Source: Patescibacteria group bacterium
Lineage (GTDB): Bacteria > Patescibacteriota > Microgenomatia > CAYGWK01
Length of the DNA: 64,000 nt
NCBI GenBank assembly: GCA_049322615.1
Contig: JBMORX010000005.1
Location: 395 to 64,394, forward strand
Direction of reading: 5' to 3'
The notes under the pieces are model-generated. The model made no database searches and had not been told where the DNA came from. It saw only the letters and a list, made by a program, of their open reading frames with translations. Shown in pieces: positions 7,926-19,925 of the stretch; the first letter of the stretch is position 1, and each line of letters begins with the position of its first letter. The position numbers were made by a program, and so were the translations under genes.

Positions 7926-8297
7926 ATGAAAATCAATCGATTTATCGATCTTGAGGCATGGAAAGAAGCCCACAAATTGGTTCTTTTAGTCTATGAGGTT
8001 ACTGCTAAGTTCCCGAAGTCAGAACTTTACGGCTTGGTTTCTCAACTCCGTAGAGCGGCAGTTTCTATAGAATCATGTATCGCTGAAGGATTTTGTCGTT
8101 ATCACTATAAAGATCGTTTAAATTTCTATTACGATGCCAGAGGTTCGGTAGGAGAAATTCAGAGTGAGATTATTGATGCTAGGGATCTAAAGTTTATCAA
8201 CGAGGAAGATTTCAAGAAGGTTTTTGATCAAGCAGAAAAAGTGGGAGTAATTTTAGGTGGACTTATTCGAACTACTCAACGCTTGTCTTCTGGCTAA
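7926..8297 (+). CDS. four-helix-bundle protein (23S rRNA intervening-sequence protein family)
   Basis: LEAWKEAHKLVLLVYEVTAKFPK..LVSQLRRAAVSIESCIAEG..; flanked on both sides by G-family repeats. Confidence 0.8.
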   Translation: MKINRFIDLEAWKEAHKLVLLVYEVTAKFPKSELYGLVSQLRRAAVSIESCIAEGFCRYHYKDRLNFYYDARGSVGEIQSEIIDARDLKFINEEDFKKVFDQAEKVGVILGGLIRTTQRLSSG

Positions 8298-8325
8298 ATT
8301 TTTGTTATTATTCTTCCTGGAATCG

Positions 8326-8355
8326 CTTAATATCCTAATATCTTAGTCTCTTAAT
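8326..8355. repeat. G-family repeat half-copy abutting tRNA 5' end
   Basis: cttaatatcctaatatcttagtctcttaatatctt. Confidence 0.45.
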
Positions 8356-8545
8356 ATCTTTTTGGGCACGTAGCTCAATGGCAGAGCACTACTCTTATAG
8401 CAGTAAAATGGGTCGGTAACTCAGCGGTCAGAGTGCCACTCTTATAAAGTGGAAGTCGATGGTTCGAATCCATCCCGACCCACCATTTTACTGATATATC
8501 GCGCCTTGCGCGCTATAAAGCAGGGGTTCTTGGTTCGAATCCAAG
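8356..8545 (+). tRNA. interrupted tRNA-like gene: intact acceptor/D arm (8356-8380) and T arm/acceptor (8521-8545) separated by about 118 nt that contains a complete tRNA
   Basis: GGGCACG...CGTGCCC 7-bp acceptor pairing; D arm GCTC-AATGGCA-GAGC; T arm CTTGG-TTCGAAT-CCAAG; anticodon-arm candidates CTACT/CTTATA..AGCAG with one mismatch; 11-bp inverted repeat CAGTAAAATGG/CCATTTTACTG brackets the inner tRNA. Confidence 0.4.
8402..8477 (+). tRNA. tRNA-Ile (anticodon UAU), CCA encoded
   Basis: Cloverleaf: GGGTCGG/CCGACCC acceptor, ACTC/GAGT D stem, CCACT-CTTATAA-AGTGG anticodon arm (TAT at 34-36), GATGG-TTCGAAT-CCATC T arm, A73, CCA. Confidence 0.8.
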
Positions 8546-8571
8546 CGTGCCCACCTAAAGTTCCTCGAGCT

Positions 8572-8621
8572 TAACCTTCTCTTCTCCGGTTTTTTCTTTG
8601 ACGAAGGCAAGATATTTCTCG
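8572..8621. repeat. 50-bp direct repeat copy 1 (duplicate of the integrase gene 3' end)
   Basis: tcttctccggttttttctttgacgaaggcaagatatttctcggtggttga, identical to 9923-9972. Confidence 0.7.
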
Positions 8622-8663
8622 GTGGTTGAAACGGATTTTAATTTCTGCTAAAATGGCATTATT

Positions 8664-8975
8664 ATGTCAATTACTTTACCGTTAACTGTTAAGATCATCT
8701 ACGAAAAAGAGGCAAAAAGTGCTCCTTTTGTGGCTTATTGTCCTGAGCTGGATATTTCTTCTTGCGGGCCGACCGAGGAAAAAGCACGGAAAAATTTAGA
8801 GGAGGCAATCGAGATTCTTCTTGAGGGGGCAGCTAAGGATGGAACCTTAAAAGATTTGCTTCTGGAAGCGGGATTTGAGATCCAAAAGCGCGAGGTTAAG
8901 CCTCCCAAAACCATCATTTTCCCCTTCCATTTTATTTTACCGGCAGGCCTTGAGAAAAAATTATGGCTCGCCTAA
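8664..8975 (+). CDS. hicB: HicB-family antitoxin
   Basis: UPF0150/HicB pattern YCPELDISSCGPTEEKARKNLEEAIEILLEG; overlaps hicA start. Confidence 0.75.
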   Translation: MSITLPLTVKIIYEKEAKSAPFVAYCPELDISSCGPTEEKARKNLEEAIEILLEGAAKDGTLKDLLLEAGFEIQKREVKPPKTIIFPFHFILPAGLEKKLWLA

Positions 8976-9193
8976 CTCCGGTTCACTTTCGGAAGCTAAC
9001 CAAGGTTTTTGAAAAAGAAGGTTGGATTTTAGTAGGGCAGACAGGAGATCACCTAGAATACAAAAAAGAAGGATTCAAAAGAAGGGTAGTTATTCCCAGA
9101 TATAAAGACGTTCCGGTTTTTGTTATCGAAAATAATCTTCGAACAGCCGGAATTTCTAGAAAGGATTATTTAAAACTTTTAAAAAGAGTTTGA
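8963..9193 (+). CDS. hicA: HicA-family toxin (mRNA interferase)
   Basis: 76 aa; GDHLEYKKEGFKRRVVIPRYKD (HicA G-H...P.H core). Confidence 0.75.
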   Translation: MARLTPVHFRKLTKVFEKEGWILVGQTGDHLEYKKEGFKRRVVIPRYKDVPVFVIENNLRTAGISRKDYLKLLKRV

Positions 9194-9236
9194 AGAACTT
9201 GACAAATTTCCGTTTTTGTTATAGGATAGGCGAAAT

Positions 9237-9680
9237 ATGAGCTGGTTAAAAGAGGCAATTGAGAGAAGCTTAGAGATGCAGAGAGATGCCGAAAGATTTG
9301 CCAAGAAGATGAACGCGGTAAGATCTAGGGCTGGGCAAATTATAACTGGACCAGATGAATACGTAGAGATGGAGGAGGAGTTAAGACAAAGACATCAAGA
9401 AATTTTACGCCCTTTTGGTTTTGAAGCCCTATTGAATGAAGTCCAAAAAGAGATATGGAGAAAAGGGAAAGTGATGTATGATCCCTACACGCTTGACTGG
9501 TTTGCATATGACCAGCGTGGTGAATGGGATGTGGCAACGATTGGTTTAGTATATGAATATAAATGTGCTTATTATCCTGGTTCTGGCGGTGGTGAACCGA
9601 GCGGGTTTTGGCATTTAGTTGAGGCCAAAGAAATTCTTTCAATATCATTAGTATCATTATTAAAATATGGAGAAATTTGA
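9237..9680 (+). CDS. hypothetical protein (cargo of repeat-bounded segment)
   Basis: 147-aa ORF; TTGACA-16-TATAGG promoter-like hexamers at 9197-9225. Confidence 0.35.
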   Translation: MSWLKEAIERSLEMQRDAERFAKKMNAVRSRAGQIITGPDEYVEMEEELRQRHQEILRPFGFEALLNEVQKEIWRKGKVMYDPYTLDWFAYDQRGEWDVATIGLVYEYKCAYYPGSGGGEPSGFWHLVEAKEILSISLVSLLKYGEI

Positions 9681-9879
9681 TCCTCAAGCAAAGGATAGGT
9701 ATTTCCATTTAAGGGGTTGTATACCCCCCGAAAGGGTGTCTATTATAGATGAGAGGGCGACGGGGGCGACAGACTTGATAAAGGATTTTTTAATAAGGGA
9801 CTCTCTTGAACGGATTCGCACTCGTTGCTTACCAAAGGATCTAAAAGATGGGAGATTTGGGTTGAGACCCAGACAGTAG
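9667..9879 (+). CDS. hypothetical protein
   Basis: 70-aa ORF overlapping previous stop. Confidence 0.25.
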   Translation: MEKFDPQAKDRYFHLRGCIPPERVSIIDERATGATDLIKDFLIRDSLERIRTRCLPKDLKDGRFGLRPRQ

Positions 9880-9897
9880 AAAAGACTCTACTAGTAT

Positions 9898-10818
9898 TTA
9901 GAGTTCTTCTAATTTTACTTTTTCTTCTCCGGTTTTTTCTTTGACGAAGGCAAGATATTTCTCGGTGGTTGAGAGTCTTTTGTGACCGGCTATTTTTGAA
10001 AGGAAAACGACCGAGGCTCCCGAGGCTAAATGATGAACCAGCCAAGTATTCCGCAGGTCATTGACTTTGGCATTTTCGATTCCGGCAATCCGAAAATAGC
10101 GATCAACGGTGGTTCTGATGTTTCGAACCAAAAGCGGTCTGCCGGTTTTGGTGACAAAAATGCTCTTTGTTTTAGTCTTTGGTCGTTCCTTCAAATATCG
10201 GTCTAAAGCAACCCTTGCGGCTTTATTTAAGGGAATAGTTCTTTCTGGTTGAGACTGGTAGGTTTTAATAAAAATTTCATTTTCTTTTAAATCCGGAAGT
10301 TCAAGCCTTGACAGTTCGCCGATTCTTATTCCAGTCTGAAGCATAATCTCAATTATGGCTGCCATTCGGACATCTTCCCGGCAAGCGTCTCGAAGAGCCC
10401 GATATTCCATTTTTGAAAGAATTCTTGGGGGTTTAATCTCGTATTTTGGATGAGAAACACCAACGGCTGGGTCTTCTTCAATCAATCCTTGAGATTTTAA
10501 AAACCTAAAAAAAGTTTTAACAGAATTAAGCTTTCGAGAAATTGACTTTAAGGTATAGCCCTTTTTGGAAAAATCTTCTTTAAATTCCTCAAGGTGCTCA
10601 CTCGTAATTGAGGTTACCTGAGTTATTTTTTTGCCACTTAAAAAAGAAACCAGCTGCTCAATGTCTTTGCCGTATGCTAAAATGGTAGAGATTGAGCGTT
10701 TTTGGCTTTTTAAATATTCTAAAAACTTTTCTTGAGCAGAAGAAAGTAGGGTTTGTTCGCCTGCCATGACAGGGGTTATAATATCACTTGGGAGGATATC
10801 TGTCAAGATGAAAGACAA
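9898..10818 (-). CDS. tyrosine recombinase (XerC/XerD/phage-integrase family)
   Basis: Catalytic residues in order: R (TGIRIGEL), HxxR (HHLASGASVVFLSKIAGHKRL), Y (TTEKYL); N-terminal core-binding domain. Confidence 0.8.
   Translation of the reverse strand: MSFILTDILPSDIITPVMAGEQTLLSSAQEKFLEYLKSQKRSISTILAYGKDIEQLVSFLSGKKITQVTSITSEHLEEFKEDFSKKGYTLKSISRKLNSVKTFFRFLKSQGLIEEDPAVGVSHPKYEIKPPRILSKMEYRALRDACREDVRMAAIIEIMLQTGIRIGELSRLELPDLKENEIFIKTYQSQPERTIPLNKAARVALDRYLKERPKTKTKSIFVTKTGRPLLVRNIRTTVDRYFRIAGIENAKVNDLRNTWLVHHLASGASVVFLSKIAGHKRLSTTEKYLAFVKEKTGEEKVKLEEL
9923..9972. repeat. 50-bp direct repeat copy 2 (inside C-terminal codons of the recombinase gene)
   Basis: Identical to 8572-8621. Confidence 0.7.
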
Positions 10819-11158
10819 ACTTATACCTGGAATCCTTTTAATCTTTGGTCTTTACCTCATAGTTTCCTTTTCTCGGGATATTTTAAGTCTCTTGGAGAAA
10901 AGTAAAGAGCAAGAAAAAGAACAGTTAAAACTTGAAAAACTTGAGATTAAAAACGAGGAATTGAAAAAACAACTTGAATATGTTAAAAGCCAAGAGTTTG
11001 TTGAAAAACAGGCAAGGGAAAAATTAGGTCTTGCTCGGGAAGGAGAGGTAGTTGTCATTCTGCCGGAAAATGTTGGGGAGTTGGTTAAACCCAAAGAAGA
11101 AAAAAAGGAAGAAGAATTACCAAACTGGAAGCGCTGGTTAAAACTTTTCTTCGATTGA
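10808..11158 (+). CDS. septum formation initiator (FtsB/DivIC-like)
   Basis: Single N-terminal TM, coiled coil, then SQEFVEKQAREKLGLAREGEVVVIL matching FtsB C-terminal block. Confidence 0.55.
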   Translation: MKDKLIPGILLIFGLYLIVSFSRDILSLLEKSKEQEKEQLKLEKLEIKNEELKKQLEYVKSQEFVEKQAREKLGLAREGEVVVILPENVGELVKPKEEKKEEELPNWKRWLKLFFD

Positions 11159-11194
11159 CTTTATTACTGTGCCGTAATTAAGAAAATTAATAAG

Positions 11195-11264
11195 AGTGGC
11201 AGCGATAGGACTCGAACCTGTAACCATCGCCTTATAGTGAAGCATAGTTTCAATATATCAAAAA
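11195..11264 (-). pseudogene. tRNA-like 3' fragment (T arm ACAGG-TTCGAGT-CCTAT plus acceptor 3' strand CGCTGCCA; no matching 5' half)
   Basis: Reverse complement reads ...GGTTCGAGTCCTATCGCTGCCA; no GGCAGCG 5' strand nearby. Confidence 0.3.
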
Positions 11265-11270
11265 CTTTAG

Positions 11271-11342
11271 TGGCAGGGGTGGGAATCGAACCCACCAAAG
11301 GGCGCTTATGAAACGCCCTGGGACACCAGTCCACTCCCTGCC
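11271..11342 (-). tRNA. tRNA with CAU anticodon (elongator Met or lysidine-type Ile2)
   Basis: Minus strand GGCAGGG...GGCGT-TTCATAA-GCGCC...GTGGG-TTCGATT-CCCAC-CCCTGCC-A; 1-72 paired. Confidence 0.7.
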
Positions 11343-12010
11343 TCGAATAATCCTTCAATTAAACCCAATATTTTATAATAAAACCTCGCTGGTTTTACCA
11401 CATTAACCGCCAATGTTCCGTAATGTTCGTTAAAATTGGCGTAAATTTTTTTGTTTTTAACCTTTTTAAAGCTTGTTTTTCTAAATTGCTCCAATGGAAT
11501 TCCTGTTACATCTGACCAATATTTCTTAACAATTTCCTCTCTGGGTCTGTGAATTTCGTTAATTCCTACATAACATTTCAAGTCCCCAGTTTTCAGCCCG
11601 AAGTTTCTTTTTAACCAACCAATCATAAATTTTATCAGCTTTGGATCAGAATTGCAAAATTCTACGTCGCGCGTCTTTTTCGTTCCTTCTGCCCAATAAA
11701 GGGCAATACCAGCTATAAGAAATTCACGTTCGGTCAAATTTCTCATCTTTTTAATACCTATTCTTTTTGACTCTTCTATTAATCTCAATCTTTTCTCTTT
11801 TTGCTTTAAAGAACTCCGCAATCGACCTAATTCTCCTCCTTTAAGCCTTCGCTTTCTTAATCTTTCCAACTGTTCAACAGAAAGGATGATATCGCGAACC
11901 CATAAGCTTGCACTACTTTTTGAGACATTTAATTTACGAGCAATCTTCTTGACACTTTCTCCTTTAGCTCGCATTTTTCTTGCTTTAATTCTAAGTAAAG
12001 ATTTTGCCAT
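11306..12010 (-). CDS. HTH-domain protein (resolvase/transposase-type N-terminal HTH), possible homing-endonuclease-like; function unknown
   Basis: N-terminus SVKKIARKLNVSKSSASLWVRD (HTH); central LIAGIALYWAEGTK; sits between two CAU tRNAs; 3' end overlaps tRNA by about 35 nt. Confidence 0.4.
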   Translation of the reverse strand: MAKSLLRIKARKMRAKGESVKKIARKLNVSKSSASLWVRDIILSVEQLERLRKRRLKGGELGRLRSSLKQKEKRLRLIEESKRIGIKKMRNLTEREFLIAGIALYWAEGTKKTRDVEFCNSDPKLIKFMIGWLKRNFGLKTGDLKCYVGINEIHRPREEIVKKYWSDVTGIPLEQFRKTSFKKVKNKKIYANFNEHYGTLAVNVVKPARFYYKILGLIEGLFEAGSGLVSQGVS

Positions 12011-12111
12011 GTATTAGAACCAGCGACTTAATAAGTATATAAATTATATCGTTGGTTCGTAATGTCTGTCAAATATATAAAAAGCTCCGGATTTCTCCGG
12101 AGCTGATTGTG

Positions 12112-12181
12112 TTGCGGGGCTGGGAATCGCACCCAGGCTGGAAGATTATGAGCCTTCCGTGCAACGTTACACTACCCCGCG
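12112..12181 (-). tRNA. initiator-type tRNA-fMet (CAU) with C1:A72 mismatch; CCA not encoded
   Basis: Minus strand CGCGGGG-TA-GTGT..GCAC-G-GAAGG-CTCATAA-TCTTC-CAGC-CTGGG-TGCGATT-CCCAG-CCCCGCA-A; unpaired 1-72 is the bacterial initiator hallmark. Confidence 0.65.
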
Positions 12182-12224
12182 TGAATAGATTGAGTTTCTA
12201 AATTTTCAACCTAGTTTTTATTGT

Positions 12225-12426
12225 ATTTATAGATTCTAAAACTGCTCGGCCCGCTATTCTGCAAAGCAGAATTTGTGGGCCACTACCCCGCGTGTCGTAA
12301 AATTAACTTCGTTAATCACGCCACCGCTTGAGTTAGATTTAGATTCCTTAGCAGTTGTAGTAGTCCCGTGTTCCGATGGCAATCGGAATTTACGGGACAC
12401 TACCCCCCGTGTCGTAAAATTAACAA
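12225..12426. repeat. tRNA-derived fragments and about 25-nt direct repeat (ctacccc(c)gtgtcgtaaaattaac x2, plus third copy of ctaccccgcgtg at the tRNA-fMet 5' end)
   Basis: Reverse complements begin CGCGGGGTAGTG.. / CGGGGGGTAGTG.. like the fMet tRNA 5' end but lack complete cloverleaf. Confidence 0.35.
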
Positions 12427-12443
12427 AGTTATTATAACATTGC

Positions 12444-13460
12444 TTGTTCCTAAATTCAACCTGTGGTAAAATCCAAACTATGGAAAAAAAGCGAGTTTTT
12501 TCGGGAATTAGATCCAGTGGAAGGCTCCATATTGGTAACTATCTAGGCGCAGTTAAAGGTATGCTTGAGCTTCAAGAAACCCATGACTGTATCTTTGGCG
12601 TGGTTGATTATCATGGGATTACTACCCCTTTTGATCCTAAATCAATTCAAAAAGAGATTCATGAAGTAGTCTTGGATTATCTGGCGGCTGGTCTTGATCC
12701 TCAAAAATGTCATTTAATGATTCAATCCCAGGTTCCCGAACATGTTGAGCTCTCTTACATTTTTGCCACCATCTTTCCTGTTTCTCGACTTGAGCAGCTA
12801 CCTACTTATAAAGAAAAGAAATTGGAAAACCCTCATTATATTAATTTAGGTCTTTTGTATTATCCGATTTTAATGGCTGCGGACATTTTGATTTATAAAA
12901 CTGACACCGTTCCTGTCGGAAAAGACCAACTGCCCCATATTGAATTAACAAGGGAAGTGGCAAAGAGGTTTAACCAAATGTTTGGCAAGATATTCCCAGA
13001 ACCCCAAGCTTATTTAACCAAAGGGGCGGTGGTGCCTTCCTTAATTGGTCAGGGGAAAATGAGCAAAAGTATTTCTGGAAGTTATATTTTGCTGACTGAT
13101 GATTTAGAAATGATTAAAAAACGCCTGGCCGCTGCTCCAACTGATATTGGTAAGGGAGAAAAAGTTCCCAAGGAAGGAGGAGTGGCAAACCTTTTGAAAC
13201 TAGTGGAGTTATTTGAGGGCGAAGGGCGAAGGACGAAGTACGAAGAAGAGTATAGAGAATCGGGTATAAAGTATAAAGTATTAAAGGAAGAATTAGCCGA
13301 GGCGATTTATCAGGAACTTAAGCCGATTCAGGAGAAAAGAAAATATTTTGAGGAAAACCCTGAGCTTGTCGAAGGAATTTTAGAGGAGGGAAGAGAGTAT
13401 TGCTCAAAAATCGCCAAAGAAACTTTGACTGAAGCCAAGAAAGCCATGGGGCTTCTTTAA
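12444..13460 (+). CDS. trpS: tryptophan--tRNA ligase
   Basis: Class I HIGH-like (GRLHIGN) and KMSKS motifs; in-frame GC-rich repeat (EGEGRRTKYEEEY) near C-terminus. Confidence 0.9.
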   Translation: MFLNSTCGKIQTMEKKRVFSGIRSSGRLHIGNYLGAVKGMLELQETHDCIFGVVDYHGITTPFDPKSIQKEIHEVVLDYLAAGLDPQKCHLMIQSQVPEHVELSYIFATIFPVSRLEQLPTYKEKKLENPHYINLGLLYYPILMAADILIYKTDTVPVGKDQLPHIELTREVAKRFNQMFGKIFPEPQAYLTKGAVVPSLIGQGKMSKSISGSYILLTDDLEMIKKRLAAAPTDIGKGEKVPKEGGVANLLKLVELFEGEGRRTKYEEEYRESGIKYKVLKEELAEAIYQELKPIQEKRKYFEENPELVEGILEEGREYCSKIAKETLTEAKKAMGLL

Positions 13461-13496: not shown

Positions 13497-16400
13497 ATGG
13501 CAAATAATAATCACAAAAAAGTCGTTCGCCGGTTTGAATTCCGACTCAACCTTAACCCAAAAAATATTATTATCTGGACTCTGGTTTTTATTCTTGGTCT
13601 TTCTTTTTTCCTCTCGTTTTTAACAAGTAGCCCAAGAGGAGAAGAGGAGATTTCTCTTTCCCAAGCCCTAACTGATATTAAAGAGGGGAAGATAAAAGAA
13701 GTCTTAGTTGAGGGAGACCGAATTGTTTTAACTTATAAAGAAAAAGATAAACTTGCCTTCACCCATAAGGAGACTGGAGACAAGATAAGTGATGTTCTAA
13801 AGTCTTCGAGTATTGACCCAACGGAGATTAATCTTAAAATTAGAGATCAGTCACTTTCTCGGGTCTGGGTTGATATGTTGGGGACAGTTTTGCCTCTGGC
13901 TTTAATGGCAATTTTCTTCTTCTTTATTATTCGTCAGGCGCGAGGCGCCCAAGACACAATTTTTTCTTTTGGTCAATCCAAGGCTCGGCTTTTTGCCAAA
14001 GGCAGACAAAACATCACTTTCCACGATGTGGCCGGAGTTGACGAGGCAAAAAAAGAACTCTCTGAAGTCGTTGATTTCTTAAAACACCCGGGAAAATATC
14101 GGTCTTTAGGTGCCAGAACTCCCAAAGGAGTGCTTTTGGTAGGGCCTTCAGGAACAGGAAAGACCTTGTTGGCAAAGGCTGTTGCCGGCGAGGCCGGCGT
14201 CCCATTTTTCTCAATGGCGGGTTCGGAGTTTATGGAGATGTTAGTCGGAGTTGGCGCCGCCAGGGTAAGGGATTTGTTCAATAATGCTAAAAGAGCAGCC
14301 CCATCAATAATTTTTATTGACGAAATTGACGCCATCGGTCGAATGAGAGGATTTGGAATTGCCGGCGGACATGATGAAAGAGAACAAACCCTAAATCAGA
14401 TTTTGGTGGAGATGGATGGTTTTACTCCAAATGATAACGTCATCGTGGTGGCGGCAAGCGTGACTGGGGAGACCCCGGTTCTTATTAAAGAGAATGGAGA
14501 AGTACGCTTTCTCCCTCTTGGTGAGTTTGTGGATCAATTTTACTCCAGGGGAAAAGAGGGGGAAGTGGAGCTGTCTGGAGTAGAATGCTTGGGGTTTGAA
14601 AGAAAGGTTTCTACTGGTAACCTGACTCGTCATAATCTTTATTTTGGTCGAAGTAGCTTCAAGCCGATAAGAGCGGTCTTCCGCCACAAGGTAAAAGAAA
14701 TTTACGAGATTGAATATTTGGGGGGCAAAATTCGGGCGACCGGAAATCACTCAGTGTTTATCCGGACACCTCAAGGTCTTAAAACAAAGGCGGTGGTTGA
14801 ACTTAAAAAAGGAGACATTTTAGTTGACTTGCCTTTTAAAGTTAACAGAACCAATAAGTCCTTGATGGAAGTGAGAACCCATCGGTTTGATTCTTCATGG
14901 TCTTTTAGTCTTCCCTTTTTTGACCAAGAACAAGAAGAAGAATGGCAAGGAAAATATCTTTTTGCTCTCCAAAATGAGGGAGATTTATCCCAAGCTAGGG
15001 TAGCGGAAATGATCGGGGTTTCTCAAGGGACGGTTTCTAATTGGCAGCGAGGAATAGGTTATCCACGGCCAATTTCAAAAGATTATTTTAAATATCGATT
15101 TCCTTCCGAGATTAAAGTTACCCCTGAGCTTTGTCGGTTACTAGGCTATTATGTCGCCGAGGGATATGCCCGCTGGGAAATTGATTTTTGTTTTTCCGTA
15201 AAAGAGAGCGAAAAGATTAAAGATTTAGTTTCTCTGATAGAAGAAAATTTTGGATTAAAACCTGATTATATAAAACATCAAACTCCCGGAGCGGTGAATA
15301 TAATTTATCAAGCTACACCGCTGGCCAGATTTTTGGTTCGTTACTGTGGTAAGGGAGCAGCCCAAAAACATGTTCCCGAGTTTCTGTTCGAAGCACCACT
15401 TGAGTATTTTAGAGAATTTCTAAGGGGAATTTGGGCAGGGGATGGTTATGAAGATAAACGGGGCAGGGGGGAGATTACTTCGGTTAGTAAAAGATTAATT
15501 TTAGAGCTTAATTGGCTTTGCCGAATGCATGGAATAAAAACTTATATTCATAATTTTACTGCCAAAGAGGGAAGAAGAATCGCCGGTGGTAAACCGCTTA
15601 AAGAGATTTTGGCTTATCGTTTGGGTTGGGGAAAGGCAAATAATCCCTTTAATAAACAACTTCTCCTTAAAACTTATCCTGTAAAGAGAGCCATCGTAAA
15701 ACAAGTAAAAAAGGTTCCTTTTGATGGTTTTGTTTATGATCTTTGTGGGGTAGAAAATGAGGCTTTTTTTGGGGGAGAAAGCCCGATTCTTCTACACAAT
15801 ACTAATCGCGGAGACCTTCTTGACCCCGCCCTTCTTCGGCCTGGTCGGTTTGACCGAAGAATAGTTTTGGACATGCCAGATATGGAGGCAAGAAAAGCAA
15901 TTTTAAAGATTCACGCCCGAGGAAAACCTTTTAGTCCAGATGTTTCCTGGGATAAGATTGCCAAAAGAACGGTTGGCTTTTCCGGAGCCGATATTGAAAA
16001 TATGCTGAATGAGGCAGCAATTTTGGCGGCGAGGGAAGGGAAGAAAGCCATTGGCATGGTTGAGATTGATGAAGCGTCGCTTAAGGTTAAGCTTGGTCCA
16101 GCTAAAAAAAGACTTCAGACTGAAGAAGATAAAAAAATGACTGCCTATCATGAGGCAGGACATGCTATCGTTACCTCAAATCTTCCTCATATGGATCCAG
16201 TTTCCCGCATTTCCATTGTTGCCCGGGGCGTTTCTTTAGGTCACACTTTAATTCCCCCAACCCAAGACCGAACCCATGAGACAAAATCGCATTTAATTGA
16301 ACAAATAATCGCCATTTTAGGTGGTCGGGCGGCCGAGGATATTGTTTTTTCCGAGATGACCACTGGGGCGGCCAATGATATTGAACAGGCAACCAGGATC

Positions 16401-16703
16401 GCCAGGGGGATGGTGATTGATTTTGGGATGAGTGATTTAGGACCAGTGAATTTAGGTCCTCAAGTTGAATATTCAGATATGGGAAGAGCGCTTTGGATGG
16501 AACCATCCCAACTTTCTCCAGAAATGGCAGCCAAAGTAGATAGGGAAGTGAAAAAAATAATTGATTCTTCTTACAAGCAGGCTTTGGAAATCTTGCGGAA
16601 ATCAAGAAAGAAACTCGATTTAATTGCCGAAAATCTAATTAAAAAAGAAACCCTAGAACAAGAGGAATTCGCTGCCCTAATGGGCAGAAAGATTAGCGCG
16701 TGA
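13497..16703 (+). CDS. ftsH: ATP-dependent zinc metalloprotease FtsH, interrupted by an intein
   Basis: TM N-terminus; AAA Walker A GPSGTGKT; second-region-of-homology; HEAGH zinc motif; host sequence VIVVAA|...|TNRGDLLDPALLRPGRFDR resumes after 448-aa insert. Confidence 0.9.
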   Translation: MANNNHKKVVRRFEFRLNLNPKNIIIWTLVFILGLSFFLSFLTSSPRGEEEISLSQALTDIKEGKIKEVLVEGDRIVLTYKEKDKLAFTHKETGDKISDVLKSSSIDPTEINLKIRDQSLSRVWVDMLGTVLPLALMAIFFFFIIRQARGAQDTIFSFGQSKARLFAKGRQNITFHDVAGVDEAKKELSEVVDFLKHPGKYRSLGARTPKGVLLVGPSGTGKTLLAKAVAGEAGVPFFSMAGSEFMEMLVGVGAARVRDLFNNAKRAAPSIIFIDEIDAIGRMRGFGIAGGHDEREQTLNQILVEMDGFTPNDNVIVVAASVTGETPVLIKENGEVRFLPLGEFVDQFYSRGKEGEVELSGVECLGFERKVSTGNLTRHNLYFGRSSFKPIRAVFRHKVKEIYEIEYLGGKIRATGNHSVFIRTPQGLKTKAVVELKKGDILVDLPFKVNRTNKSLMEVRTHRFDSSWSFSLPFFDQEQEEEWQGKYLFALQNEGDLSQARVAEMIGVSQGTVSNWQRGIGYPRPISKDYFKYRFPSEIKVTPELCRLLGYYVAEGYARWEIDFCFSVKESEKIKDLVSLIEENFGLKPDYIKHQTPGAVNIIYQATPLARFLVRYCGKGAAQKHVPEFLFEAPLEYFREFLRGIWAGDGYEDKRGRGEITSVSKRLILELNWLCRMHGIKTYIHNFTAKEGRRIAGGKPLKEILAYRLGWGKANNPFNKQLLLKTYPVKRAIVKQVKKVPFDGFVYDLCGVENEAFFGGESPILLHNTNRGDLLDPALLRPGRFDRRIVLDMPDMEARKAILKIHARGKPFSPDVSWDKIAKRTVGFSGADIENMLNEAAILAAREGKKAIGMVEIDEASLKVKLGPAKKRLQTEEDKKMTAYHEAGHAIVTSNLPHMDPVSRISIVARGVSLGHTLIPPTQDRTHETKSHLIEQIIAILGGRAAEDIVFSEMTTGAANDIEQATRIARGMVIDFGMSDLGPVNLGPQVEYSDMGRALWMEPSQLSPEMAAKVDREVKKIIDSSYKQALEILRKSRKKLDLIAENLIKKETLEQEEFAALMGRKISA
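14457..15800 (+). other. intein (448 aa) with LAGLIDADG homing-endonuclease domain inside ftsH AAA domain
   Basis: Begins with Ser (SVTGETPVLI), block B TGNH, two LAGLIDADG-like motifs (LLGYYVAEGYA; FLRGIWAGDGYED), ends ..ILLHN followed by Thr +1. Confidence 0.8.
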
Positions 16704-16739: not shown

Positions 16740-17132
16740 ATGCCGCGGCCAATCAAAAGACCAATCCTTTATGAGGATTTAACCTATAAACTGATTGGTT
16801 TTGCGATGGGAATTCACAATGAACTTGGTTCCATTCATAAAGAAGCAGTTTATCAAAATGCTTTTGCTCAGGAGCTAAAAACAGCGGGAATTCCTTTTAA
16901 AAGAGAAGAGGTCTTACCGGTTAATTTTAAGGGAAAGGAAATTGGCAGTTATAAGCCAGATTTCGTGGTTGATGAGAAAGTAGTGGTAGAAATTAAGGCA
17001 GTTGAGTTCCTACCCCAGAAGGCAGAGGTTCAGTTGAGTTATTATCTCAAAGGGACGAAATACAGAGTGGGTTTGCTATTAAATTTTGGTTCACCTAAGC
17101 TTCAAATTAAAAGAAGAATTTATGGGTGGTAA
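16740..17132 (+). CDS. GxxExxY-family protein
   Basis: Conserved KPDFVVDEKVVVEIKAV...GLLLNFG pattern shared with 19554-19925. Confidence 0.7.
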   Translation: MPRPIKRPILYEDLTYKLIGFAMGIHNELGSIHKEAVYQNAFAQELKTAGIPFKREEVLPVNFKGKEIGSYKPDFVVDEKVVVEIKAVEFLPQKAEVQLSYYLKGTKYRVGLLLNFGSPKLQIKRRIYGW

Positions 17133-19553: not shown

Positions 19554-19925
19554 ATGCAGGATAACCTAGATAACAAATTAAGTGGGCAAATTATTGGGTC
19601 GGCTATAAAGGTACATAAGGCATTAGGCTCGGGAATGGTCGAGAAAATCTACCAGCGAGCCCTATATCTTGAACTAAAAAAGAGCGGCCTAAAATTTGAG
19701 CGAGAAAAGAGAATCGCGATTAAATATAATAATGTAATAGTTGGTTATCAAATAGTAGATTTTGTAGTTGAGGGAAAGGTTTTAATTGAGGTAAAAGCGG
19801 TTAGCGGTTTAGATGAGGTTCAAATTGGCCAGGTAGTCACATATTTGCATGCTACCAAAATACCGTTGGGTTTAATCTTAAATTTCGGCAAAAGCAAGTT
19901 GGAGATTAAAAGGGTCAAGATATAA
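19554..19925 (+). CDS. GxxExxY-family protein
   Basis: YQIVDFVVEGKVLIEVKAV...GLILNFG. Confidence 0.7.
   Translation: MQDNLDNKLSGQIIGSAIKVHKALGSGMVEKIYQRALYLELKKSGLKFEREKRIAIKYNNVIVGYQIVDFVVEGKVLIEVKAVSGLDEVQIGQVVTYLHATKIPLGLILNFGKSKLEIKRVKI

What the first reader, a model, noticed from the sequence alone, without database searches (positions are those of the whole stretch)
8356..8548. Complete tRNA-Ile(UAU) nested between the two halves of a second tRNA-like gene
8356-8380 carries a canonical acceptor 5' strand (GGGCACG) and D arm. 8521-8545 carries a canonical T arm (CTTGG-TTCGAAT-CCAAG) and the exactly complementary acceptor 3' strand (CGTGCCC) plus discriminator A. About 118 nt lie between them, and this gap contains a full 76-nt tRNA with encoded CCA and anticodon UAU (8402-8477). 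The inner tRNA is bracketed by an 11-bp inverted repeat (CAGTAAAATGG / CCATTTTACTG) that extends its acceptor stem. The outer halves could make an anticodon arm CTACT-CTTATAA-AGCAG, also UAU, with one A:C mismatch, if the 118 nt are removed. The 5' exon end (CTTATA|GCAG) and the insert end (GCTATA|AAGCAG) echo each other. The insert is too short for a group I intron. It resembles an intron or insertion that is itself a tRNA, or a tRNA duplication by insertion into the anticodon loop of its own paralogue. A UAU isoleucine tRNA also suggests AUA decoding without lysidine.
Basis: seen in the sequence. Interest (0 to 1): 0.75.

Follow-up and report, generated by a model that had tools for sequence, protein, structure and literature searches.

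The report
tRNA gene nested inside another tRNA
A complete isoleucine tRNA gene sits on a 118-base cassette inserted exactly into the anticodon loop of an older isoleucine tRNA gene, and relatives carry the same design up to four layers deep, which points to an undescribed kind of small mobile element that replaces the tRNA gene it breaks.

Summary
An outer tRNA-Ile(UAU) gene (8364-8399 and 8518-8553) is split between nt 37 and 38 by a 118-bp insert (8400-8517). The insert carries a canonical tRNA-Ile(UAU) with encoded CCA (8410-8485). The window is a Microgenomates-like Patescibacteria MAG.

The same design recurs at the same syntenic site in at least five other genomes, and in tRNA(CAU) genes. 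Every insert follows ..ATA|. Rejoining its two ends gives one conserved hairpin: helix, mismatch, TATA/TATA, mismatch, helix.

- Nesting order can be reversed. The window is A[B] and L048 is B[A], with 93% identical partners.
- Nesting can be serial. L040 has one complete tRNA followed by three displaced 3' halves, two of them without 5' partners.
- Outer halves decay, as in L079 and L008.

There is no bulge-helix-bulge motif and no group I core.

Best reading: a DNA-level, site-specific insertion of a promoterless tRNA cassette. The inner tRNA is the working gene and the outer halves are displaced relics, not exons.

The enzyme is unknown. Candidates are a neighbouring HTH-LAGLIDADG-fold protein family and a conserved Xer-like recombinase. 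I found no published description.

The parts
8283..8311 (+). Candidate promoter (TTGTCT-17-TATTAT) upstream of the outer 5' half. It would drive the whole nested unit.
   Evidence: Consensus scan only. The cassette itself has no promoter-like site between the outer 5' half and the inner tRNA.
8364..8399 (+). Outer (resident, 'A-type') tRNA-Ile(UAU) 5' half, nt 1-37, ending ..CTTATA.
   Evidence: 94% identical to the 5' part of the intact tRNA at the syntenic site in L079. Pairs 7/7 with 8546-8552.
8400..8409 (+). Left arm of the cassette (GCAGTAAAAT), the 5' strand of the helix that brackets the inner tRNA.
   Evidence: Equivalent arms in relatives: GCGAAAAT (L135), GCAAATTT and GCAAAAAATTT (L040), ATGAATTT (L145)..
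8410..8485 (+). Inner ('B-type') tRNA-Ile(UAU) with encoded CCA. This is the working gene.
   Evidence: ARAGORN. Rfam RF00005 73.6 bits, E 3e-14. 93% identical to the split outer tRNA of L048.
8485..8493 (+). Right-arm strand ATTTTACTG, which pairs with the left arm.
8494..8517 (+). Twin-TATA hairpin: A-TATA-T-CGCGC-CTT-GCGCG-C-TATA. Its last base is the right junction.
   Evidence: Folds. The same design is seen in L040 (four copies), L145, L135, L048 (inverted) and at window 11233-11257.
8518..8555 (+). Outer tRNA-Ile(UAU) 3' half, nt 38-73, plus CC. The displaced relic.
   Evidence: Differs from the intact A-type body in L048 only by T41>C, which creates the A29.C41 mismatch.
11197..11270 (-). 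Second instance of the same design. It follows tRNA(CAU) 11271-11342. Right-arm module CTAAAGTTTTTGATATATTG..CACTATA (11270-11233), then an orphan tRNA 3' half AGGCGATGG..CGCTGCCA (11232-11197) with no 5' partner in the window.
11306..12010 (-). HTH plus LAGLIDADG-fold protein (234 aa). Its last 12 codons and stop codon lie in the 5' half and anticodon loop of tRNA(CAU). Candidate nuclease for the cassettes.
9898..10818 (-). Xer-like tyrosine recombinase, conserved next to this tRNA locus in all relatives. Alternative candidate enzyme, or simply the housekeeping Xer.
   Evidence: Pfam. NCBIfam XerD 154 bits, below the cut-off of 330. Synteny.

Best explanation
The locus is a resident tRNA-Ile(UAU) gene that was cut at the DNA level between nt 37 and 38 of its anticodon loop. 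A 118-bp promoterless cassette was inserted there.

The cassette has three parts:
- a short left arm;
- a complete tRNA-Ile(UAU) gene;
- a right arm that pairs with the left arm and ends in an imperfect hairpin carrying two TATA boxes (GA-TATA-TC and GC-TATA|GC).

Recombination joins the cassette's GC-TATA|GC box to the target's CT-TATA|AA(G) box. TATA therefore stands at both junctions.

The cassette belongs to a family found in Microgenomates-like Patescibacteria. Members insert into anticodon loops of tRNAs that have the cassette's own anticodon (UAU or CAU). Each new inner tRNA offers a fresh target, so cassettes stack like Russian dolls.

Inferred, not shown:
- The whole unit is transcribed from the resident promoter.
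- RNase P and 3' trimming release the inner tRNA, which is the functional AUA decoder.
- The outer halves are leader and trailer, and they decay as pseudogene pieces.

The enzyme is not identified. My preferred candidate is the HTH-LAGLIDADG-fold protein family encoded next to these tRNAs, making 4-nt staggered cuts across TATA.
For: 1. Orthology of the outer gene. Synteny of the TraG-like gene, tRNA-Ile(UAU) and the Xer-like gene is conserved. The outer halves match the tRNA at that position in relatives.

2. The same design recurs in independent genomes and assemblies:
- L135/L136
- L048
- L040, both the Ile and the CAU loci
- L145-L154, ten contigs
- partial forms in L134, L008 and L142

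3. One structural rule. In all six cassettes tested, joining the right arm to the left arm folds into helix, 1x1 mismatch, TATA/TATA, 1x1 mismatch, helix, with the junction immediately 3' of the TATA of the C-TATA-G box. The helices differ in sequence.

4. Reciprocal nesting. The window's outer tRNA is 93% identical to L048's inner tRNA, and the window's inner is 93% identical to L048's outer.

5. Serial nesting with orphans. L040 has one 5' half, one complete tRNA and three displaced 3' halves, each preceded by the module. Two of the three have no 5' partner.

6. Decay series of outer halves:
- window: one mismatch
- L135: T loop ATCGTCC
- L008: 5' half broken
- L079, the closest relative (88% TraG identity): outer B-type halves heavily mutated

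7. The module occurs only beside tRNA halves in 974 kb of fetched loci.

8. L149 is 99.5% identical to L145 up to the end of the tRNA 3' half and only 83% identical beyond it. This places a recombination breakpoint at the tRNA.

9. An HTH-LAGLIDADG-fold gene is adjacent to the affected tRNAs.
Against: - No excised circle, empty-site polymorphism within one population, or enzyme activity has been seen. Mobility is inferred from comparative anatomy only.
- Four of the five fully split outer tRNAs keep 7/7 acceptor pairing, and three of them also 5/5 anticodon-stem pairing. This could also mean selection on the outer tRNA.
- At CAU targets the left junction keeps CATA and the right junction has TATA, so a simple 4-bp target duplication does not fit.
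- The simple twin-TATA hairpin definition is not rarer than chance in the window: 2 found against about 2 expected in shuffles. Only its position beside tRNA halves is telling.
Confidence: 0.65

Rival explanations
1. The insert is a true intron, or an excisable RNA. The precursor releases the inner tRNA, and the two outer halves are joined into a second functional tRNA-Ile(UAU) by an unknown bacterial protein-dependent or RNA-guided splicing pathway.
For: - The insertion is at the canonical 37/38 intron position.
- Outer acceptor and anticodon stems are intact or nearly so in the window, L135, L048 and L040-X, with different sequences in each.
- The motif GAUAUAUCG can pair either with the exon-1 UAUA or with the intron's 3' UAUA.
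- DPANN archaea carry real 37/38 introns in tRNA-Ile(UAU) (L004, L006).
Against: - The genome is bacterial (FtsH, NrdD/G, DivIC).
- No bulge-helix-bulge motif is possible. Nt 32-35 (CUUA) cannot pair with intron nt -6..-3 (GCUA).
- No group I or other ribozyme hit appears at E<=10.
- RNase P and RNase Z ends would leave long extensions rather than ligatable ends.
- Orphan and decayed outer halves (L040 Y and Z, L079, L008, window 11197-11232) show the outer copy is dispensable.
Confidence: 0.08
2. The small inserts are not mobile units. They are what remains after larger integrative or homing elements, carrying a nuclease or integrase gene plus a tRNA, inserted into the tRNA gene and then lost their interior.
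For: - In L134 the left junction (CTTATA|GCTTGAAAAATTT) is followed by a tRNA-like 5' fragment, a promoter and an HTH-LAGLIDADG-like ORF.
- At window 11197-12010 the ORF, tRNA(CAU), module and orphan 3' half lie in that order.
- L149/L145 show that the block of ORF plus nested tRNA moves between backgrounds.
Against: - Six independent cassettes have almost no sequence beyond the tRNA and the hairpin (41-60 nt of arms).
- In L145 and L040-CAU the ORF lies outside, upstream of the outer 5' half, not inside the insert.
- Repeated clean deletion down to the same minimal structure is unlikely.
Confidence: 0.15
3. A reversible DNA switch. The cassette is excised precisely, restoring the outer tRNA gene, so the cell alternates between two tRNA-Ile alleles and both copies stay under selection.
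For: - Cutting both junctions at TATA and rejoining would restore CTTATAA exactly.
- Outer halves are near-intact in several genomes.
- Both nesting orders occur.
- Logan contigs of SRR32167786 break immediately after the structure (L001 ends at window position 8563 and L144 starts near 8600).
Against: - Decayed and orphaned outer halves.
- No population data.
- The window's outer copy already carries an A.C mismatch that intact homologues lack.
Confidence: 0.08
4. A one-off local duplication or rearrangement, or an assembly chimera, with no dedicated mechanism.
For: tRNA genes are common recombination and assembly breakpoints.
Against: - Identical sequence in two assemblies.
- The same junction position, arms and hairpin in at least six other genomes from ENA, JGI, Logan and NCBI.
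Confidence: 0.02

Closest known systems
Integrative elements (prophages, ICEs, genomic islands) that insert into tRNA genes using tyrosine integrases
   Same: Site-specific insertion inside a tRNA gene, often at the anticodon loop. tRNA function is preserved after insertion. Displaced tRNA 3' pieces accumulate downstream. A tyrosine recombinase gene is nearby.
   Different: Known elements are kilobases long and encode their own integrase. They restore the tRNA by carrying a copy of its 3' part, which leaves long direct repeats. Here the insert is 118 bp, carries a whole tRNA gene, shares only TATA with the target and leaves both halves of the old gene behind. (The properties of the known elements are from my own knowledge.)
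Integron gene cassettes with attC sites
   Same: Small promoterless cassettes expressed from an outside promoter. The recombination site is a hairpin whose shape and internal mismatches are conserved while its sequence varies. Serial accumulation.
   Different: The core here is TATA, not GTTRRRY. The cargo is a tRNA. The target is an anticodon loop, not attI. Cassettes nest rather than line up. The nearby recombinase scores 43 bits against a cut-off of 265 for integron integrase.
Group I introns in Patescibacteria tRNA genes (Nakagawa et al. 2026, PMC13011429)
   Same: Same phylum. Interruption of the anticodon loop. Missed by standard tRNA finders. A real group I intron sits in tRNA-fMet of relatives at the neighbouring locus.
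   Different: No ribozyme core. 76 of the 118 nt are a tRNA. The position is 37/38 rather than 35/36 or others. The last base is A. No Rfam hit.
Archaeal bulge-helix-bulge introns and split or permuted tRNA genes (Nanoarchaeum, Caldivirga, Cyanidioschyzon)
   Same: Canonical 37/38 position. Two halves whose flanking sequences can pair.
   Different: Bacterial host. The BHB motif was tested and is absent. The halves flank a complete tRNA. Outer halves decay in relatives.
Free-standing or intron-borne LAGLIDADG homing endonucleases, including those in CPR rRNA insertion sequences (Tsurumaki et al. 2024, PMC11270868, cited in PMC13011429), and T4 SegB in a tRNA gene cluster (SegB from memory)
   Same: A LAGLIDADG-fold protein is encoded beside the affected tRNA genes. 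The palindromic NN-TATA-NN boxes fit a homodimer that leaves 4-nt overhangs (inference). The L149/L145 block transfer looks like co-conversion.
   Different: The protein is at a fixed, conserved position, fused to an HTH domain and overlapping a tRNA. No activity is known. Classical homing copies an element between identical alleles and does not explain A[B] versus B[A].
IS200/IS605-derived miniature elements and REP/RAYT systems (from memory)
   Same: Hairpin-defined ends. Insertion immediately 3' of a short specific sequence without classical target duplication. Very small non-autonomous units.
   Different: No Y1/HUH transposase was seen in about 40 window ORFs. The cargo is a tRNA. The target is restricted to cognate anticodon loops.

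Membership tests
Canonical bacterial tRNA (inner gene) | Cloverleaf with conserved D/T loop residues, scoring above the Rfam RF00005 threshold | tested here: met
   73.6 bits against 29. ARAGORN tRNA-Ile(tat), 76 nt with CCA.
Canonical bacterial tRNA (outer gene, after removing 8400-8517) | Cloverleaf recognised by a tRNA finder | tested here: met
   ARAGORN calls tRNA-Ile(tat), 72-74 nt, on the joined construct. Not called in place even with intron options and not reported by Rfam.
Archaeal/eukaryal protein-spliced tRNA intron | Bulge-helix-bulge motif: two 3-nt bulges holding the splice sites, separated by a 4-bp helix | tested here: not met
   Read directly from the sequence. Nt 32-35 CUUA and intron nt -6..-3 GCUA cannot pair. 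The predicted folds place the junctions at helix ends instead.
Archaeal/eukaryal protein-spliced tRNA intron | A tRNA-splicing endonuclease (EndA) and an RtcB-type ligase in the genome | not testable with these tools
   Only 64 kb is available. Neither was seen among about 40 ORFs.
Group I intron | Conserved P3-P9 catalytic core, exon ending in U, intron ending in G | tested here: not met
   No Rfam intron hit at E<=10. Only 42 nt of the insert are not tRNA. The insert ends ..CTATA.
tRNA-targeting integrative element | Element-encoded integrase, and direct repeats made of the tRNA 3' segment | tested here: not met
   The insert is 118 bp with no ORF. The only repeat at the junctions is TATA.
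Integron cassette | attC with a GTTRRRY core, and an IntI integrase adjacent to attI | tested here: not met
   The core is TATA. The recombinase scores 43 bits against 265 for TIGR02249.
LAGLIDADG homing endonuclease (ORF 11306-12010) | alpha-beta-beta-alpha-beta-beta-alpha fold with a LAGLIDADG helix ending in a catalytic acidic residue | tested here: inconclusive
IS200/IS605-type miniature element | A Y1 HUH transposase in the genome, and subterminal hairpins with guide-sequence pairing | tested here: inconclusive
   A hairpin at the right end is present. No transposase was found in the window. The rest of the genome is not available.

The most novel reading that the evidence does not exclude
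These are a new class of mobile element, 'tRNA cassettes' of about 115-135 bp.

- Each consists only of a tRNA gene and a twin-TATA hairpin.
- Cassettes are cut out and pasted into the anticodon loop of the cognate tRNA gene by the neighbouring HTH-LAGLIDADG protein, through compatible 4-nt TATA overhangs.
- Each insertion kills the resident essential gene and replaces it, so the cassette cannot be lost.
- Precise excision would restore the older gene, allowing exchange of tRNA-Ile alleles within and between Patescibacteria populations.
Probability: 0.2. Interest if true: 0.9.

Novelty: categorically new. Interest (0 to 1): 0.82.

Why it matters
- If the reading holds, it adds a new and very small kind of mobile element. 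Its only cargo is a tRNA gene, and its target is the same tRNA gene.
- It shows a way for an element to make itself indispensable, by replacing an essential gene rather than adding to it.
- It explains why standard tRNA finders leave unexplained tRNA 'halves' in Patescibacteria genomes, and why assemblies often break at these loci.
- It gives a concrete, testable substrate (CTTATAAG, GCTATAGC, GATATATC) for a large uncharacterised HTH-LAGLIDADG-fold protein family, with over 600 and over 1600 homologues in its two branches.
- It warns that apparent tRNA introns at 37/38 in bacteria need not be introns.

Tried and rejected
- ARAGORN with intron models on 8300-8620 did not call the outer tRNA. 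At lowered thresholds it only produced a spurious minus-strand tRNA-Ala.
- Rfam at E<=10 on 8000-12600 gave no ribozyme, intron or half-tRNA hits. It gave only the inner tRNA, tRNA-fMet and weak tRNA-like hits for 11272-11342.
- A phage database search found only generic tRNA similarity.
- My metagenome scan used a T-arm pattern that was too degenerate.
- Contigs for the two closest TraG relatives (91-92% identity) end before the tRNA.
- Look-ups of the window's own flanking proteins returned only short contigs of the same sample.
- I rejected a sigma-70 promoter reading of the module (TTGATA..TATAAA), because the spacing varies from 12 to 21 nt between copies.
- I rejected a hammerhead reading of CUGAUAU.
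- I rejected a simple target-site duplication of TATAAAGCAG, because L048 has GCAG at its left end with a different 3' exon.
- I first took L079 for an 'empty site'. On inspection it is a nested locus with a decayed outer gene.
- Foldseek against PDB gave no significant fold match for the HTH protein.

Full report
**Observation**

The structure exists, but it lies 8 nt to the right of the stated coordinates.

| Part | Coordinates | Sequence or note |
|---|---|---|
| Outer 5' half, nt 1-37 | 8364-8399 | GGGCACGTAGCTCAATGGCAGAGCACTACTCTTATA |
| Insert (118 bp) | 8400-8517 | contains the four parts listed next |
| Left arm | 8400-8409 | GCAGTAAAAT |
| Inner tRNA-Ile(UAU) with CCA | 8410-8485 | ARAGORN; Rfam 73.6 bits against 29, |
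| Complement of the left arm | 8485-8493 | ATTTTACTG |
| Hairpin | 8494-8517 | A-TATA-T-CGCGC-CTT-GCGCG-C-TATA |
| Outer 3' half, nt 38-73 | 8518-8553 | followed by CC |

The outer halves pair 7/7 in the acceptor stem and 4/5 in the anticodon stem, with an A29.C41 mismatch. ARAGORN does not call the outer gene in place, even with intron options. It does call tRNA-Ile(tat) once the insert is removed. An independent Logan contig from SRR32167786 is identical across the whole structure.

**Context**

The window is part of a 64.5-kb contig of an NCBI 'Patescibacteria group bacterium' MAG. Its genes are bacterial:

- NrdD/NrdG and NrdR
- an FtsH that carries an intein
- TrpRS, DivIC and a Xer-like recombinase

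The closest homologues are from Gottesman-, Shapiro- and Woesebacteria. The gene order TraG-like protein, tRNA-Ile(UAU), Xer-like gene is conserved in every relative I could fetch. The tRNA locus is therefore orthologous across them.

AUA makes up 109 of 737 isoleucine codons in 18 ORFs. An AUA decoder is therefore needed.

**Comparative loci**

| Locus | Arrangement |
|---|---|
| L002, L138, L140, L141 | Uninterrupted tRNA-Ile(UAU) at the same site |
| L135/L136 (754-kb contig; two assemblies) | Outer GGGCTTG.. / ..CAAGCCC split at 37/38 by GCGAAAAT + inner tRNA + right arm |
| L048 | Outer GGGTCGG.. / ..CCGACCCACCA around a complete GCGCTCG.. tRNA |
| L145-L154 (ten contigs) | Outer GGACTCG.. 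/ ..CGAGTCC around GGACCAG.. |
| L040, Ile locus | One 5' half, one complete tRNA, then three displaced 3' halves, each preceded by the hairpin module. Only the middle one matches the 5' half. |
| L040, CAU locus | A tRNA(CAU) nested in a tRNA(CAU) |
| Window 11197-11342 (minus strand) | tRNA(CAU), then the module, then an orphan 3' half |
| L134, L008, L142 | Partial or broken versions |
| L079 (closest relative with data; TraG 88% identical) | A complete A-type tRNA flanked by a recognisable but heavily mutated B-type 5' half and 3' half |

**Rules of the insert**

- Every insert follows the A at position 37 (..TATA| in UAU tRNAs, ..CATA| in CAU tRNAs).
- Every insert ends in ..TATA|.
- Every insert has the same orientation as the host tRNA.
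- When I join the right arm to the left arm, as in an excised circle, all six cassettes fold into one design: a 7-12-bp helix, a 1x1 mismatch, a TATA/TATA helix, a 1x1 mismatch, a 2-6-bp helix and a loop. The junction lies immediately 3' of the TATA of the C-TATA-G box.
- The helices differ in sequence between cassettes. The boxes GA-TATA-TC and GC-TATA|GC are kept.
- In L048 the hairpin is inverted relative to the tRNA, yet the junction is still at C-TATA|G.
- The target CT-TATA|A(A/G) resembles a palindrome of the same type, and is exact (CTTATAAG) only where nt 39 is G, as in L040; in the window it reads CTTATAAA.
- The G+C-stemmed module was found only beside tRNA halves in 974 kb of fetched DNA.
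- A loose definition of the hairpin is no rarer than chance in the window. Its position carries the signal, not its count.

**Why this is DNA-level insertion and not splicing**

1. Reciprocal nesting. The window is A[B] and L048 is B[A]. A is 93% identical to A' and B is 93% identical to B'.
2. Orphan 3' halves look as intact as matched ones (L040 Y and Z; window 11197-11232). Intactness is therefore not evidence of function.
3. There is a decay series of outer halves: one mismatch in the window, an odd T loop (ATCGTCC) in L135, a broken 5' half in L008, and heavy mutation in L079.
4. No bulge-helix-bulge motif can form, no group I core is present, and Rfam finds nothing else.
5. L149 is 99.5% identical to L145 up to the end of the tRNA 3' half and 83% identical beyond it. 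This is a recombination breakpoint at the tRNA.

The different but internally complementary outer stems are best explained by each outer gene having been a working tRNA when it was split.

**How it most likely works**

*Shown:* the anatomy, its recurrence, reciprocal and serial nesting, and decay.

*Inferred:*

- The cassette is promoterless and is read from the resident promoter. A candidate lies at 8283-8311.
- RNase P and 3' trimming release the inner tRNA.
- The outer halves are leader and trailer.
- Insertion destroys an essential single-copy gene and supplies its replacement in one step. The insertion is therefore neutral to the host and hard to lose.
- Because the new tRNA carries the same anticodon loop, it is the next target. 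That produces the Russian dolls.

**Enzyme candidates**

*(a) The HTH-LAGLIDADG-fold protein family.*

- A 234-aa protein (11306-12010, minus strand) lies directly upstream of tRNA(CAU). Its C-terminus and stop codon are encoded by the tRNA's 5' half and anticodon loop.
- A 32%-identical paralogue lies directly upstream of tRNA-Ile(UAU) in L134, L141 and L145.
- Sequence searches see only the HTH domain.
- The motif ..YWxEG.. is invariant.
- From my own knowledge, homodimeric LAGLIDADG enzymes cut palindromic sites and leave 4-nt 3' overhangs. That would fit the TATA boxes.
- Against this candidate, the genes are syntenic and well conserved, more like host genes than selfish ones.

*(b) The Xer-like recombinase.* It is conserved next to the locus and might act on the folded hairpin, as integron integrases act on attC. 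This is an analogy only.

*(c) A hairpin-specific HUH enzyme encoded elsewhere in the genome.* This is not testable here.

**Comparison with known systems**

The locus shares single features with several known systems:

- tRNA-targeting integrative elements
- integron cassettes
- group I introns of Patescibacteria tRNAs (PMC13011429)
- archaeal introns and split tRNAs
- homing-endonuclease elements
- IS200/IS605 miniatures

It fails a defining feature of each system that could be tested; the IS200/IS605 test was inconclusive (see the membership table). Full-text searches for nested or interrupted tRNA-in-tRNA arrangements, and for tRNA insertions in CPR bacteria, found no description.

**Limits**

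- About seven species-level examples support the family, and all are from metagenomes.
- There are no expression data, no population data and no biochemistry.
The true spread is therefore unknown.

Noticed in passing
window 8556-8650 and 9895-9985: The 3' end of the Xer-like gene is duplicated. About 55 nt are identical and about 90 nt are alignable. The two copies flank a 1.25-kb segment (8650-9897) of small ORFs, including a HicA-toxin-like one. L079 and L040 lack this segment. It looks like a small element inserted at the end of the recombinase gene.
   Followed up: partly
window 12242-12292 (minus strand), next to tRNA-fMet 12112-12181: The first 12 nt of tRNA-fMet (CGCGGGGTAGTG) recur upstream of the intact intronless gene, followed by a GC-rich hairpin-like stretch. 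In L139, L140, L141, L142, L040, L038 and L065 the tRNA-fMet gene carries an insert of about 230 nt in the anticodon loop that looks like a group I intron. The window fragment may be the remnant of such a copy.
   Followed up: partly
window 11271-11342 and 11306-12010 (minus strand): The HTH-LAGLIDADG-fold ORF reads through the 5' half of tRNA(CAU) and stops at TAA in the anticodon loop (..TCA TAA). The peptide EAGSGLVSRGVS is conserved across homologues. This tRNA has an odd D arm and fails the Rfam tRNA threshold, with 35.6 bits on the Sec model.
   Followed up: partly
window 11197-12292 compared with L139 900-2100: The block tRNA-fMet, HTH ORF, tRNA(CAU) is inverted in the window relative to DivIC and TrpRS when compared with L139/L140. 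tRNA fragments lie at both ends of the block.
   Followed up: no
window 13497-16703: FtsH is interrupted by an intein carrying LAGLIDADG and HTH domains (Pfam Intein_splicing, LAGLIDADG_3).
   Followed up: no
window 7926-8297, 16740-17132, 19554-19925: One '23S rRNA intervening sequence' four-helix-bundle protein and two PD-(D/E)XK_3 small proteins are scattered between housekeeping genes. The first lies directly upstream of the nested tRNA, here and in L134 and L138.
   Followed up: no
L149 1-1074 compared with L145 2326-3399, then L149 1075-1944 compared with L145 4554-5423: Identity drops from 99.5% to 83% exactly at the end of the tRNA 3' half. L149 lacks two ORFs present in L145, and its displaced 3' half has a different acceptor strand (CTGGTCC).
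   Followed up: partly
L142 2441-2590 and L008 1680-1890 (minus strand): Partial tRNA copies in which the D-arm region is replaced by a CCCCGAT-containing hairpin or repeat (GTAGCTCAGCGG-CCCCGATTAAATCGGGG-CTCTTATAA.. in L142). This is a different kind of disruption from the 37/38 cassettes.
   Followed up: no
L004 3060-3300 and L006 1390-1500: DPANN archaeal tRNA-Ile(UAU) genes with introns at 37/38 (about 115 nt and about 25 nt) that ARAGORN did not call.
   Followed up: no
L056, L072, L086, L121, L122, L070, L108 (metagenome loci): tRNA-Pro(TGG)-like and other 3' halves preceded by non-tRNA or degenerate 5' sequence. These may be att-site remnants in unrelated bacteria.
   Followed up: no
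P0121-P0360: Most contigs carrying either HTH-LAGLIDADG-fold paralogue are barely longer than the gene (0.9-1.5 kb). Assemblies seem to break on both sides of it.
   Followed up: no
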